From the NCBI GenBank assembly GCA_963664115.2, contig CAXWPJ010000012.1, positions 160,001-224,000 on the forward strand: a DNA stretch of 64,000 nucleotides, in the 5' to 3' direction. The number at the start of each line of letters is the position of its first letter. Position 1 is the first letter of the stretch. The notes beneath the pieces are model-generated. The model had not been told where the DNA came from and did not search any database. It worked only from the letters and a program-made list of their open reading frames with translations. Positions 1,199 through 20,965 of this stretch are shown in pieces. This DNA comes from Terriglobia bacterium. Lineage in GTDB: Bacteria; Acidobacteriota; Terriglobia; 20CM-2-55-15. The position numbers were made by a program, and so were the translations under genes.

Positions 1199-1222
1199 TC
1201 TAGGGGCGTCCTTTCATACTGC
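1199..1222 (-). mobile_element. Terminal fragment of a second IS110/IS1111 copy, interrupted by IS1380
   Basis: 1198-1239 is identical to 9133-9174, including subterminal IR CCTTTCATA, GAT core and flank TTAACAGGACTTGA. Confidence 0.85.
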
Positions 1223-1243
1223 GATTTAACAGGACTTGAGAAT
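1223..1243 (+). repeat. Right half of recurring palindromic site (GAT-TTAACAGGACT-TGAGAAT)
   Basis: Matches right halves at 1910, 6365 and 9161; continuation TGAGAATCATTTTC shared with 6376-6389. Confidence 0.75.
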
Positions 1244-1657: not shown

Positions 1658-1892
1658 GACGCCACTATCTCATAGGACGGCACTGAACCGACTCTTTCAA
1701 TCTGGCTTTGAAAATCTCGATAAAGAAACATGAAAGCAAGAGGTCGCGCGACGGCCTGCGGCCGCGACGATTCGTCCTCGGCAACGCCGAATGGTAGAGC
1801 TATTCACTTCCGCAGGATAGGTAAACCCTTGGCGACTTATCGTTAGTAATCCGGCGTTATTTCAGTTCCTAGGCACTTCTCCCCGAAGTTCA

Positions 1893-1920
1893 ACGTCCGA
1901 GAAGATGATTTGTCAGGACT
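1893..1920 (+). repeat. Intact recurring 11-6-11 palindromic site
   Basis: ACGTCCGAGAA-GATGAT-TTGTCAGGACT followed by TGA; arms are imperfect inverted repeats. Confidence 0.8.
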
Positions 1921-1932
1921 TGACCTCCAAAA

Positions 1933-2020
1933 TCAGGGAACTGGCACCCTCTCCTTCAGTTCTTCAAACCAATTCAGGACGATGTTGATTCCGGGGGCGG
2001 GCGGCCTCGCCAGTACCGGT
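1933..2020 (-). pseudogene. C-terminal remnant of a Ser/Thr kinase-beta-propeller gene
   Basis: Minus strand reads TGTGEAARPR (1-nt shift) INIVLNWFEELKERVPVP*. Confidence 0.8.
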
Positions 2021-6340: not shown

Positions 6341-6382
6341 ATTCTCAAGTGACGCGAAGATGATTTCTCAGGACCTGAGAAT
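6341..6382 (+). repeat. Recurring site with extended arms (42 bp)
   Basis: ATTCTCA-AGTGACGCGAA-GATGAT-TTCTCAGGACC-TGAGAAT. Confidence 0.75.
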
Positions 6383-7595: not shown

Positions 7596-7619
7596 ATTCT
7601 CAACGTCCGAGAAGATGAT
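7596..7619 (+). repeat. Left half of recurring site, split by IS1111
   Basis: ATTCTCA-ACGTCCGAGAA-GATGAT; joined to 9161 onward it rebuilds a close copy of 1893-1990. Confidence 0.85.
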
Positions 7620-7799
7620 CTATGAAAGGGGATGTCAAGAGAAACAGCTCCCCGATGGCCGGCCAGACGGACACTTTTGTCGTGACAGCCAGCCCCTCTA
7701 CCGTTATGTGAAGCCCTGGTTCCGGCAATCCGCAGCGAAATCGTACATCTTTAAGACGGTCGATTCAGAAACTGAACAGCATATGGGACGGCATGTGCC

Positions 7800-7985
7800 G
7801 ACCATGGATCTATCTGAGCCTCGAAGGCTATCGCTGTTTCAGGTCGTGCGAGGGGGGATAGAGATTTAAAAGTGTCCTCTGGACGTATCCAGGGACCACA
7901 TCTTGTGCAGATCCTCACCCTCGATCCTCAGTTGTTCCGACTCCGTCTAACGACTCAGTACGGCTCTACCGGTCACGGATCGAAA
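7800..7985 (-). ncRNA. Putative bridge/seek RNA of the IS1111 element (boundaries approximate)
   Basis: Hairpin flanked by target-matching segments (7863-7906) and a hairpin flanked by donor-junction-matching segments (7807-7837). Confidence 0.7.
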
Positions 7986-7989
7986 CGGC

Positions 7990-9054
7990 TTATGTTGTCA
8001 TCCAGCTCAGTTTCTTTGGATCGAACGATTCTCCTTTCTTCCAAAGCGTCAGCACCAGTGCGGCGATCTTACGGGCCAGAGTGACCCGCGCCATTTCCTC
8101 CCGCATCCCACGCATCTGGAGACTCTCCAGATAAATCCGATACGGCTCGCTTTGTTTTCCCGATGCCGCGGCTGAGAAGAACACCGACTTCAATCGCCGG
8201 TTGCAGTTCGCATTCAATCCGCGTGTGGCCACCGGTTTCCTCCGTCGCACCACACGTCCACTCTGCATCTCATACTCCGCGCTCATGTGGGTCACCACAC
8301 CCAGGCCACTGTAGCTCCAGAACTGCGGTGTCGTGCGGAATCGGTACGGCGTGTCCACGATGGCGACGATCTGTGCCGCCCGAACCGGTCCCAGTTGTGG
8401 AATGGTCTCGAGCAGTTTCACCGCCTCATGGTGCCGGCCCTCCACTCGCACCGCTTTTCTGGATTGTTTCCGCAGCAACTGGACCTGGTCCAGTTCCGCA
8501 TACAACCATCGGGCGCGCTGCCTCATCCCCGGCTCGGTCAGCTTCTCCAACCACTGTTCGCGCTGACTCGGCCGATAGACTCCGTCCTTCGGTGTCGGGA
8601 TCCCCCGTCCCCGGTATATCGCTTTGATCCGCGACATCACCCGTTGCGTGTCCAACTGGAACGTGTCATAGGCCTGCACCAGTTGCTTCAATTCTCGCGT
8701 CGCTTCATGGCCGTGATACACCGAGCGCAACAGTCCCACCCGCAACAGCTCGGCCAGCTTCCGCGCATCCGGCTTATCCCCCTTCGACCCTTCTTGCATC
8801 CACTTGTTCTGTCGCGGATCGCACACCACCACCTCGCTCACCCACGGCCGGATCACTTCCGATAACCAGCCCGCTTGCGTGGTCTCCTCCAACCCCACGT
8901 GCATCGGCCCACTCAATCCCTCCAGCAGCCGTGTGATACTCCCCGCCTCGGTTTCCACGATCGTTTCAAACACCAGTTTGCCGCTCCCGTCTCTCACCGC
9001 AACCACCGTCGTTGCCTGGTGCACATCCATACCCATATACTTGTCTTGTTTCAT
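7990..9054 (-). CDS. IS110-family DEDD recombinase/transposase
   Basis: YMGMDVH, VGLEE, KGDKPDARKLA, IPQLGP..A, SYSGL. Confidence 0.92.
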   Translation of the reverse strand: MKQDKYMGMDVHQATTVVAVRDGSGKLVFETIVETEAGSITRLLEGLSGPMHVGLEETTQAGWLSEVIRPWVSEVVVCDPRQNKWMQEGSKGDKPDARKLAELLRVGLLRSVYHGHEATRELKQLVQAYDTFQLDTQRVMSRIKAIYRGRGIPTPKDGVYRPSQREQWLEKLTEPGMRQRARWLYAELDQVQLLRKQSRKAVRVEGRHHEAVKLLETIPQLGPVRAAQIVAIVDTPYRFRTTPQFWSYSGLGVVTHMSAEYEMQSGRVVRRRKPVATRGLNANCNRRLKSVFFSAAASGKQSEPYRIYLESLQMRGMREEMARVTLARKIAALVLTLWKKGESFDPKKLSWMTT

Positions 9055-9160
9055 CTCGAACGCTCCTTTTCTGGGATCAACGCTGTATACGTTGATCAGG
9101 TTGTTGAGTGAGTCTTCTCTCAACAACCCCCAGTCTAGGGGCGTCCTTTCATACTGCGAT

Positions 9161-9174
9161 TTAACAGGACTTGA
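9161..9174 (+). repeat. Right half of recurring site, split by IS1111
   Basis: TTAACAGGACT-TGA, then a kinase tail at the same spacing as 1910-1935. Confidence 0.85.
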
Positions 9175-9183
9175 CCTCGTAAA

Positions 9184-9270
9184 TCAGGGCACCGGCACCC
9201 GTTCTTTCAGTTCTTCAAACCAGTTGAGGACGATGTTGATTCTTGGGCGCTCGGTTTCTTCCAAGTCGGC
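9184..9270 (-). pseudogene. C-terminal remnant of a Ser/Thr kinase-beta-propeller gene
   Basis: Minus strand reads ADLEETERPRINIVLNWFEELKERVPVP*. Confidence 0.8.
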
Positions 9271-14371: not shown

Positions 14372-14452
14372 TGCGCGCCACACTTCACCCATTCCACCCT
14401 TACCTAAAAGCGTTGAGATCTCGTAATGACCGAGTTTGGTGCCAGATTCCAT
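14372..14452 (-). pseudogene. N-terminal remnant of a Ser/Thr kinase gene
   Basis: MESGTKLGHYEISTLLGKGGMGEVWRA (glycine-rich loop), then abrupt loss of similarity. Confidence 0.88.
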
Positions 14453-14527: not shown

Positions 14528-14562
14528 ATTCTCAAGTCCCTGCAAATGACCTTGGCGGACAG
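14528..14562 (-). repeat. Recurring site, inverted orientation
   Basis: Minus strand CTGTCCGCCAA-GGTCAT-TTGCAGGGACT-TGAGAAT. Confidence 0.65.
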
Positions 14563-14885
14563 TCAGATAGCCGAGTCTTTCATCCAAATCCGTAAGGATC
14601 TCAATGGAACACAACTGGACCTGGCAGGAGTTGACTGTTCAAAACGAAGCAAACGAAGGTGACGAAGGGAGAGATCTGAGAGAATGAACTAGGAAAGGTG
14701 CAGAGGAAGAAATCAGTGGTCATCAGTCAGGAATTATCAGTCCGAAGGTGAGAAATCGTGTCGGCCGGATTTCTCTAAACCCATAACTATTAACTCTTAA
14801 CATTCCTTACCGCACCTGTTCTTTTAAGATCACAAGTGTCCCTGCCGCTGCAGGACCGCAACCCGTGCGGAACGGAAGTTCACGA

Positions 14886-16133: not shown

Positions 16134-16444
16134 GTTCGGTGTTCCGCACACTCCAGACGGTACTGTCAACTTGGGCTCGCTGAAGTTGTTACAGGTCGTT
16201 CAGTCAGAACTTCGGCGTGACGTTCCGTCTTCATTACCAATGAACTACGTCCGTTAGATCAGGTGCTGCGGCGATGAAACAAAGCAATGAAGCTGGCACC
16301 CGCAAACGTGACAGTTGCCCCGCATAACCTCACCACTCCACCAACTCCTTCTCCGTAAGCTCCTGGAAGCACCTCGGACACTTCGCAGCCGCTGACAGGA
16401 GGCCACGCCCAATTCTTTGAAGTTTTCAGGAATTACAGATGTCA

Positions 16445-16472
16445 ACTTCCGACAAGATGATTTATCAGACTA
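16445..16472 (+). repeat. Recurring site variant
   Basis: ACTTCCGACAA-GATGAT-TTATCAGACT, same GATGAT spacer. Confidence 0.7.
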
Positions 16473-19875: not shown

Positions 19876-20889
19876 CAGTCCAGCGTTCGGGCTCCTCGAT
19901 TCGATTTGCCGACCGTAATGGGCGAATCTGCCGGGAGAGCACAGGCACAACACAGAAGAAGCTCGCCCAAGCAATCCTCGACAAGACGGACCAGTTGCGG
20001 CCACTTGGATGTTAAGAAGGTTTCTAAAATGTTTTATGAACCTGCACCCAGTATTGGGGCACCTACGGGAACATCTCCGCATGAAGGGCCTCTCCATGAT
20101 CGAAGTTTCATCGGCAATGCCCTGAAAGACATCATGCGATTTCTGAATACCCGGATCGAGCGAGACGAACTGAGCCCGGCGACGAGAAACCGTCATCTCG
20201 TCATGCTACGAGCCTTGTTCAATCGAGCAATCAAGTGGGGGCTGTTGGGAACCAATCCAACGGCGGGAATTGGACGATTGAGAGAAACGGGAGCACGTAC
20301 ACGGTTTCTCGATCAGGACGAGATCAAGGTGTTGTTGGAAGCCGCAAACGATCGATTCCATCCCATCCTGATAACAGCCCTGCACACGGGCATGAGACGT
20401 GGAGAAATTCTCCGACTTCAGTGGCCCGACGTAGACCTCAAAAATCGGACGATTACGATTCAGGAATCGAAGAGCGGAAAGAAACGCATGATCCCAATCG
20501 ACGGCACACTGTGCACAACACTACTGGCGCTCCCTTCCCGCTTTCAGAAGGGCTACGTCTTCCCTTCCCCGCGCAAGGAAAACGCTCCGTACACCGATAT
20601 CAACCATACGTTTCGACGGATCGCCGACAAGGCCAATATTGAAAATGTGCGCTTCCACGACCTGCGCCATACGTTTGCCAGTCATCTGGTCATGAATGGT
20701 GTGGACATTAGAACCGTTCAGGAATTGCTGGGTCATGCCAACGTAACAATGACGATGCGCTACTCTCACCTCTCGCCTGTCCATCGGACACGGGCCGTAC
20801 AAATCCTCGATACAGCCCTCCGAACTGACACAAAAACTGACACAGTGGAAAATCAGACGCAGGCGGGTTCCGCTAACTCATTGAAATAA
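19847..20889 (+). pseudogene. Tyrosine integrase, frameshifted N-terminus, intact catalytic domain (open frame from ATG 20134)
   Basis: TGMRRGE, HDLRHTFAS, LLGH...MTMRYSH; N-terminal IRFADRNGRICRESTGTTQKKLAQAIL lies in another frame. Confidence 0.8.
20823..20844 (+). repeat. Tandem 10-mer, candidate integrase arm-type sites
   Basis: AACTGACACA at 20823 and 20835, ~50 nt from the tRNA 3' end. Confidence 0.5.
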
Positions 20890-20892
20890 CAA

Positions 20893-20965
20893 TGGGACCG
20901 ACCGGACTTGAACCGATGACTTCCTGCGTGTGAAGCAGGCGCTCTTCCAACTGAGCTACGATCCC
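20893..20965 (-). tRNA. tRNA-Val (anticodon CAC)
   Basis: GGGATCGTAGCTCAGTTGGAAGAGCG-CCTGC-TTCACAC-GCAGG-AAGTC-ATCGG-TTCAAGT-CCGGT-CGGTCCCA cloverleaf. Confidence 0.95.

What the first reader, a model, noticed from the sequence alone, without database searches (positions are those of the whole stretch)
7603..9171. IS1111 inserted exactly into the recombination-type site, with readable bridge-RNA guides
Seen in sequence: removing 7620-9160 rebuilds ACGTCCGAGAA-GATGAT-TTAACAGGACT-TGACCTC plus a kinase tail, nearly identical to 1893-1990. The predicted circle junction is ACTGC-GAT-CTATG. The minus-strand non-coding region has ACAAGATG-[hairpin GTCCCTGGA/TCCAGAGGAC]-TTAAATC (7906-7863), matching target AAGATG and the reverse complement of GATTTAA. 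It then has ACAGCGAT-[hairpin AGCCT/AGGCT]-ATAGATC (7837-7807), matching donor ACTGCGAT (7/8) and the reverse complement of GATCTAT. Established: IS110 bridge RNAs have a target loop then a donor loop in this layout. Both IS-hit sites read GATTTAA, while unhit ones read GATTTGT, GATTTCT or GATTTAT, as the guide predicts. The left target guide register is ambiguous because GAT is tandem. Inference: this IS exploits the cassette sites, as IS1111-attC elements exploit integron attC, which independently suggests the site is an abundant functional element.
Basis: partly seen in the sequence, partly recalled or inferred. Interest (0 to 1): 0.85.

Follow-up and report, generated by a model that had tools for sequence, protein, structure and literature searches.

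The report
RNA-guided IS targeting kinase-cassette sites
A small jumping gene whose predicted guide RNA spells its landing site sits, in all seven copies, at the same base of a 34-base repeat found about 175 times in this genome; the repeat marks the edges of DNA segments that have been reshuffled, likely by a recombinase not yet identified, and most repeats carry variants that the guide matches poorly.

Summary
The core observation holds. This is an IS1111-type IS110-family element (7619-9159). All 7 copies in the genome split a 34-bp dif-like palindrome at the same base, and one has an exact empty allele. Both target guides and the right donor guide change with their DNA partners across homologues, which also settles the register: core GA.

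Three corrections. (1) GATTTAT sites are hit (4 of 8 junctions). (2) The proposed left donor guide tracks the donor poorly; it pairs with a 3' RNA segment in 37 of 37 homologues. (3) The guide fits a minority variant: occupied sites have 1-2 mismatches, but only 5 of 125 empty ones do.

The site (177 copies) flanks Ser/Thr-kinase modules and coincides with rearrangement breakpoints (35 of 258 ends, null 4.3). Its recombinase was not found. Guide-compatible variants are rarer in the 2 genomes holding this guide (17 of 186) than in 3 where it was not found (18 of 44), hinting at escape.

The mechanism is known; the target and RNA fold are new. The scan noted attC/attI-targeting IS110s in other genomes, not this site.

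The parts
7619..9159 (-). IS1111-type element, 1541 bp; ends set by homologue junctions and by the 7-bp/3-bp extension rule
   Evidence: rule from PMC11187229 passages
7990..9054 (-). DEDD recombinase, 354 aa; D10, E56/E57, D93, D96, S258 invariant in 25 homologues (S258 inferred to be the catalytic serine)
7622..7629 (.). sub-terminal inverted repeat at the non-coding end (8 bp perfect, 9 with the outer pair)
   Evidence: sequence; both copies change together in homologues
9145..9152 (.). sub-terminal inverted repeat at the gene-start end
7772..7925 (-). predicted bridge/seek RNA in the downstream non-coding end; ends not mapped
   Evidence: no Rfam match
7899..7907 (-). left target guide, 9 nt, ending on the G of the second GAT; 7 of 9 match to this flank, 8 of 9 to the other six
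7863..7869 (-). right target guide, 7 nt
7830..7841 (-). left strand of the donor loop: weak donor match, predicted to pair with 7772-7780
7807..7813 (-). right donor guide, 7 nt; exact donor match in 44 of 47 guide sets
7772..7780 (-). 3' RNA segment predicted to pair with the left donor-loop strand
7633..7638 (-). TTGACA, predicted -35 box of the circle-junction promoter; 17 nt to a CAGTAT -10 box at 9156-9151 once the ends are joined
   Evidence: sequence; same layout seen by eye in homologues; not tested
7600..7618 (+). left part of the interrupted 34-bp site (type B, spacer GATGAT)
9160..9174 (+). right part of the interrupted site
9184..9240 (-). remnant of a Ser/Thr-kinase 3' end (INIVLNWFEELKERVPVP, stop)
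   Evidence: sequence; same tail class
1200..1239 (.). orphan gene-start end of the same IS plus right half-site, cut off by an IS1380 inserted at CTAG
1890..1989 (+). empty type B site with kinase-tail remnant; shares its left flank exactly with a site at C2:317297 that continues into other DNA
6345..6378 (+). empty, diverged type B site
14532..14565 (-). type A site followed by a sigma-70-like promoter motif (read by eye) and a kinase start remnant (ATG at 14452)
16442..16468 (+). truncated type B site, guide-compatible (2 mismatches) but empty

Best explanation
This is a recently spread IS1111-type insertion sequence whose downstream non-coding end likely makes a guide RNA that is predicted to direct its DEDD recombinase into the centre of a 34-bp dif-like repeat, where all seven copies sit at the same base.

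Steps:
(1) Excision to a circle joins the ends and makes a TTGACA-17-CAGTAT promoter (inferred from IS1111 literature; not seen here).
(2) The RNA's first loop pairs with about 8 bases left of the core and 7 bases from the core rightwards (covariation shown; pairing inferred).
(3) Strands are exchanged just after a GA core (position shown by junctions; chemistry inferred from IS621).
(4) The donor is likely read by the right donor guide plus protein contact with the sub-terminal repeats. The strand where IS621 has its left donor guide is predicted to be tied up in an RNA helix.
(5) Insertion puts 1.5 kb between the two arms and would inactivate the site.

The site is the terminal mark of a family of kinase-derived modules (A site, promoter, kinase, inverted B site). 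It coincides with rearrangement breakpoints and is most likely the substrate of an unidentified tyrosine recombinase. The guide fits a minority variant, and the IS fills 7 of the 12 whole sites that fit it.
For: - Seven copies, protein 100% identical; six unbroken copies differ at 0-6 of 1538 bases.
- Same insertion base at 7 of 7 and 8 of 8 junctions; exact empty allele C6:45089 of C11:1098.
- Right target guide, 23 distinct guides and 57 flanks: match at +2..+7 is 1.00, 0.98, 0.89, 0.85, 0.91, 0.59 against permuted 0.71, 0.39, 0.26, 0.30, 0.36, 0.27, each p=0.0005; no signal beyond +7.
- Left target guide: summed match 7.64 against a null maximum of 7.37 (8 guides) and 7.80 against 6.15 (22 guides). 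Identity is 0.82 in register and 0.26 at the other GAT.
- Right donor guide exact in 44 of 47 guide sets, over five sequence variants.
- Occupied sites have 1-2 mismatches; 5 of 125 distinct empty sites have 2 or fewer, p=2e-6. Of 13 empty near-matches genome-wide, 12 are whole or half sites (half sites judged by eye).
- Order of matches is the IS1111 order of PMC11187229.
- RNA helix: 7 pairs formed in 37 of 37, with both-side changes in 8 and 3 sequences; the lower-energy fold in 25 of 37.
- Site as breakpoint: 35 of 258 low-copy duplication ends within 60 bp, null mean 4.3, maximum 12; flank switches at the site.
Against: - No RNA, circle or activity was observed.
- The left-guide register was set separately for two clades. 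With one register the signal was weaker: 5.41 against null mean 3.90, maximum 4.76.
- Homologues are kin, so the p-values overstate.
- The RNA helix was chosen from the same alignment it was counted on, and its changes amount to about two clade-level events. The classic donor-loop stem also shows both-side changes (2 columns, 2 sequences each). One left-strand position (-4) does follow the donor in the GAT clade and the distant group, though not in the large GTT clade.
- The truncated G002 copy with almost this guide lies at a spacer match that is not a whole site.
- The empty allele could reflect strain mixture in an assembled genome.
- Variable bases of the site do not travel consistently with either flank, which a single fixed crossover in the spacer does not explain.
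- No recombinase was tied to the site.
Confidence: 0.85

Rival explanations
1. Same element, but with a full IS621-like donor loop: the left strand is a real but imperfect donor guide, and the 3' helix is only a storage or processing fold.
For: The stem that closes a classic donor loop is 98.8% paired with both-side changes in 2 columns. GC next to the core is invariant in RNA and donor, and position -4 follows the donor in two groups. PMC11208160 section 12 proposes donor-binding bases in a multi-loop for IS1111 elements.
Against: Position -3 is A in all 31 guide sets while the donor has T or A. Most GTT-clade elements have A where the donor has G at +1. Mean pairing probability is 0.43 for the 3' helix against 0.08 for the classic stem.
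Confidence: 0.3
2. The site is a substrate of the host's XerC/D (a pdif-like module system), so the IS is an RNA-guided dif-module hunter.
For: Two arms round a 6-bp spacer; inverted A/B pair flanking a gene with different spacers; left arm 8 of 11 identical to the left arm of the host's own dif; no dedicated recombinase found.
Against: The right arm shares only 5-6 of 11 bases with the host's other dif arm. A canonical dif is present once in 5 of 5 relatives, including G004, where the site was not found.
Confidence: 0.2
3. A and B are terminal inverted repeats of a non-autonomous transposon family that carried a kinase gene, moved by a transposase in trans; the IS then targets a transposon end as IS4321 does.
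For: Inverted orientation round the kinase; conserved sequence extends inward only; a sibling in G001 sits at IS6-type ends (4 of its 9 loci hold an IS6-type transposase hit).
Against: B outnumbers A 132 to 27 and stands in direct-repeat arrays. In 11 of 18 groups the same outer flank is joined to different inner DNA, which random-target transposition would not give. Target duplications were not examined.
Confidence: 0.2
4. The site is only a dispersed repeat or operator; breakpoints arise by homologous recombination in the 34-90 bp of shared sequence, and the IS merely found an abundant target.
For: Variable bases switch at no fixed point; 63 of 132 sites carry a kinase-tail remnant that adds homology; no enzyme identified.
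Against: Arms and spacer are strongly conserved over 177 copies while flanks are not; conserved 24-25 and 114 bp spacing of back-to-back A/B pairs; the same site in 7 other genomes of 60 searched.
Confidence: 0.2

Closest known systems
IS1111-group elements with seekRNA: ISEc11, ISKpn4/ISPst6 (attC), ISPa11 (REP), IS4321/IS5075 (Tn21 ends). PMC11187229: passages and section 13 read; IS4321 and IS1111-attC papers seen only as reference titles
   Same: Downstream non-coding end, sub-terminal repeats, 7/3 extensions, top-strand match before bottom-strand match, one orientation in a repeated target.
   Different: Repeats are 8-9 bp against the usual 11-13. The best listed plasmid relatives are 27-29% identical and carry no element name. 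The target is neither attC, REP nor a known transposon end.
IS621 / ISCro4 bridge recombinases (PMC11208160 passages and section 12; PMC11208158 and PMC13626964 passages; PDB 8wt6, 9t56)
   Same: DEDD plus serine domains; target loop with a left and a 7-nt right guide; 2-bp core with exchange 3' of it; 7-nt right donor guide.
   Different: Distant proteins (E 3e-5 and 3e-7). The RNA lies downstream and reads the target in the opposite orientation. Left guides stop at the first core base. The left donor strand is predicted to be in an RNA helix.
IS1202-family elements next to pdif/dif sites and Acinetobacter dif modules (PMC10132070, 10.1101/2022.12.17.520857, PMC13141974: search listing with start of abstract only)
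   Same: An IS that homes on recombination sites; inverted sites flanking cargo.
   Different: IS1202 elements have terminal repeats and land 5 bp beside the site; this one lands inside the spacer by RNA guide. The site is not a close dif copy and its enzyme is unknown.

Membership tests
IS110 family (broad) | PF01548 DEDD domain plus PF02371 domain with catalytic serine | tested here: met
   both over cut-off; invariant D10, E56/57, D93, D96, S258. NCBIfam NF033542 scores 122, under its cut-off of 140.
IS1111 group | sub-terminal inverted repeats (7-17 bp per PMC11208160; usually 11-13 per PMC11187229) | tested here: met
   8-9 bp perfect; both copies change together in at least 4 variants; short for the group
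IS1111 group | terminal extensions of 7 bp left and 3 bp right | tested here: met
   ends deduced independently from 59 junction pairs give 7 and 3 outside the 8-bp repeat
IS1111 group | long non-coding region downstream of the gene | tested here: met
   371 bp downstream, 105 bp upstream
IS1111 group | top-strand match 5' of bottom-strand match in the RNA | tested here: met
IS1111 group | recombinase falls in the IS1111 clade | not tested
   no named reference proteins were retrieved; no tree built
IS1111 group | circular intermediate with junction promoter; RNA bound to the recombinase | not testable with these tools
   promoter boxes readable in sequence; contigs cannot show absence of a circle
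IS621-type bridge RNA | target loop whose two guides covary with the target | tested here: met
IS621-type bridge RNA | donor loop with both guides matching the donor | tested here: inconclusive
   right guide exact in 44 of 47; left strand tracks an RNA segment better than the donor
IS1111-attC group | target is an integron attC site | tested here: not met
   34 bp, equal arms, 6-bp spacer, no conserved GTT/AAC ends in 177 copies; attC features recalled, no attC model run
dif/pdif (XerC/D) site, for the target | 11-6-11 layout with a conserved XerD arm | tested here: inconclusive
   layout fits; left arm 8 of 11, right arm 5-6 of 11 against the host dif

The most novel reading that the evidence does not exclude
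These bacteria carry an undescribed chromosomal cassette-shuffling system of up to about 175 dif-like sites, born from the ends of a Ser/Thr-kinase module. An RNA-guided IS with a non-IS621 donor loop parasitises it, and the sites have shifted at their two free positions away from the guide: a natural arms race between a bridge RNA and a recombination site.
Probability: 0.25. Interest if true: 0.85.

Novelty: new variant of a known kind. Interest (0 to 1): 0.55.

Why it matters
RNA-guided targeting of repeated sites by IS1111 elements is established, so the mechanism is not new. Three things add to it.

(1) A large, divergent clade (5763 proteins at E<=1e-30 among 8000 scored) with dozens of natural guide-target pairs gives position-by-position guide rules for an IS1111-type system. 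It also suggests how the donor is read without a full left donor guide, a question that preprint 10.1101/2025.10.25.684509 raises as open for target-loop-only RNAs (passages).

(2) The target exposes a 177-copy site family at the borders of reshuffled, kinase-derived modules. I found no description in one literature search, which is thin evidence.

(3) The skew of site variants is a testable case of target escape from a bridge RNA; one search listing showed no paper on it.

Tried and rejected
- One fixed register for the left target guide mixed two clades offset by one base; replaced by a clade-wise register defined by the right donor guide.
- The alternative register at the first GAT: identity 0.26 against 0.82; rejected.
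- The tyrosine recombinase between two A sites (C5:52189-53154) as the site's enzyme: not found at E<=1e-40 in G002 or G003, which hold 82 and 39 sites, but found in six genomes with none; rejected. The other 26 tyrosine-recombinase matches were not tested this way; serine and DDE enzymes were not examined.
- The site as the chromosomal dif: a separate canonical dif lies at about C2:108.1 kb, near the skew maximum.
- Circle and expression: contigs of 4 of 21 listed runs showed no end-to-end joint, and the two RNA runs gave only scattered low-depth cover. Contigs cannot show absence, so this says nothing either way. Joints there that skip about 1541 bases have only 21-26 bases on the short side and probably come from other empty sites. 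No further runs were examined.
- Rfam: only a tRNA in 1-22000. The promoter scan found nothing relevant on the linear element.
- Three of 40 distinct RNA sets (L006, L011, L032; near-duplicates or mis-parsed) were left out of alignment A3. Elements under 60% identity were left out of the target permutation tests.
- No supplements were read; Extended Data Fig. 10c of PMC11208160 and the long-seekRNA folds of PMC11187229 could already show the 3' helix.

Full report
The element. The window holds an intact IS110-family gene (7990-9054, minus; PF01548 and PF02371) with 371 bp of non-coding DNA downstream and 105 bp upstream. The genome has seven copies with identical protein. Six are unbroken and differ at 0-6 of 1538 bases; the seventh (C9) is split by an IS1380 at a CTAG in its gene-start end. 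Window 1200-1239 is an orphan end behind an IS1380 at the same CTAG. The best listed plasmid relatives are 27-29% identical, NCBIfam scores it under the family cut-off, and solved IS621/ISCro4 match weakly. The clade is large in metagenomes. The host is probably an acidobacterium: the two nearest named records are so titled and unchecked scan notes say so. A sponge-metagenome run covered the stretch.

Insertion point. All 7 junctions on the non-coding side and all 8 on the other side lie at the same base of one repeat. C6:45089 is an exact empty allele of the C11:1098 insertion. Among 59 distinct junction pairs of homologues, the third base of the apparent duplication is T in 58 on one side and variable on the other. 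The first base is G in all 59 on the gene-start side but T in 5 on the other; one case places the second base with the target. The exchange is therefore after a GA core, and the element is 7619-9159. That leaves 7 and 3 bases outside an 8-bp inverted repeat, as described for IS1111 elements (PMC11187229). Both repeat copies change together in relatives.

Target guides. I collected homologues from 61 related genomes (15 with a match; further copies) and 80 metagenome loci (best 80 of 574). Of 146 parsed 3' ends, 99 were at 60% identity or more. The right target guide follows the flank at +2 to +7 (23 guides, 57 flanks, each p=0.0005) and not beyond. The left guide needed a register per clade, defined by the right donor guide. 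It then gave 7.64 against a null maximum of 7.37 (8 guides) and 7.80 against 6.15 (22 guides, positions -7 to -1 each p<=0.0004). The other GAT register scores 0.26 against 0.82. Kin are not independent, so these p-values overstate. A relic sibling in the same genome has a different guide that matches its own, different flank. The order of the two matches is the one reported for IS1111 seekRNAs.

Choice among site variants. The A at +6 (8 of 8 against 30 of 121) and the C at -6 (6 of 7 against 32 of 121) do discriminate. Occupied sites have 1-2 mismatches to the two guides; only 5 of 125 distinct empty sites do, and most have 3-4. So 7 of 12 fitting whole sites are filled and 0 of 120 others. 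Of 13 empty near-matches in the genome, 5 are whole sites, 7 half sites and 1 unrelated.

Donor loop. The right donor guide equals the donor over 7 bases in 44 of 47 guide sets, through five variants. The left strand does not behave so. Its -3 base is always A against donor T or A, its last AT persists against donor TT, and most GTT-clade elements mismatch at +1. Seven of its bases pair with a segment about 60 nt downstream in 37 of 37 aligned RNAs, with both-side changes in 8 and 3 sequences. This fold is lower in energy in 25 of 37. Against this, I picked the helix from the same alignment, the changes are about two events, the classic stem also covaries, and position -4 partly follows the donor. 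A switch or pseudoknot is possible. PMC11208160 section 12 already notes multi-loop donor regions in IS1111 elements, and a short target-matching RNA sufficed for ISEc11. One search on pseudoknots listed nothing on this helix; figures and supplements were not seen.

The site. A matrix finds 177 copies and none in a shuffled genome: two 14-bp arms round a 6-bp spacer, GATGAT in 132 (type B) and a GTCGT-like spacer in 27 (type A). B sites stand in same-strand arrays (median spacing 2.4 kb among 89 spacings under 15 kb), and 63 of 132 carry a kinase 3' remnant. Five of 7 kinase frames end in this tail; 3 are followed by a whole B site and 2 by an internally deleted one. Sixteen of 27 A sites are followed by a kinase start, most with a promoter-like motif between (read by eye). 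The ancestral unit is thus inferred to be A, promoter, kinase, inverted B. In 11 of 18 groups sharing an upstream flank and 8 of 15 sharing a downstream flank, the other side differs, mostly switching at or just beside the site. Of 258 low-copy duplication ends, 35 lie within 60 bp of a site, against 4.3 expected. The site occurs in 8 of 61 genomes, abundantly only in this genus. It is not the chromosomal dif, though one arm shares 8 of 11 bases with it. One candidate recombinase failed a distribution test. Variable bases do not travel with one flank, which I cannot explain.

Possible escape. The variant that fits the guide makes up 10 of 117 sites in G000 (occupied ones added back) and 7 of 69 in G002, the only two of 35 family genomes in which this guide was found. 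It makes up 15 of 36, 2 of 7 and 1 of 1 in G003, G001 and G029. With two related genomes against three, shared ancestry could explain this, so it is a lead only.

Verdict. A real, recently active IS1111-type RNA-guided element: known mechanism, with an apparently undescribed target family and an atypical predicted donor loop. RNA, circle and catalysis are inferred, and the site's enzyme is unknown. Novelty: new variant of a known kind; interest 0.55.

Noticed in passing
G000:C1:92926, C1:107675, C2:196451, C12:35350, C12:158198, C12:486987, C12:569262, C3:2939: Eight elements headed by a 301-309 aa tyrosine recombinase (six identical; IS91-like by recall) start within about 60 bp of, or inside, an A/B site in at least 7 cases: a second mobile family drawn to the same sites.
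   Followed up: partly
L004, L019, L027, L039-L044 (G001): A sibling element (69-70% identical) with a different guide lands at a motif like the window's IS6-family ends; 4 of 9 loci hold an IS6-type transposase hit.
   Followed up: partly
L007, L045-L048 (G021): A sibling whose guides spell a small palindrome, GTATAG-GCGA-CTATAC-like; the nature of that target is unknown.
   Followed up: no
L066 (G048): A distant relative has inserted into the right-target-guide region of another copy of itself.
   Followed up: no
G000:C2 about 750700 (minus): A half copy of the host's dif (left arm and spacer) lies inside a site array.
   Followed up: no
G000:C9:714590-715873: An integron-integrase-like tyrosine recombinase (label by eye) with no A/B site within 2.5 kb.
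   Followed up: no
G000, 11 places, e.g. C2:90877/90903, C2:319947/320062: Back-to-back A and B sites at fixed 24-25 or 114 bp spacing with conserved linkers: possibly a composite recombination site.
   Followed up: partly
window 19906-20965: A phage-type integrase ending next to a tRNA gene at 20893-20965; likely the border of the island that holds this array.
   Followed up: no
window 7863-8064, run X20: One low-depth RNA-run contig goes back from 8064 to 7863, the 3' edge of the right target guide, with 3 shared bases; a single contig, unexplained.
   Followed up: no
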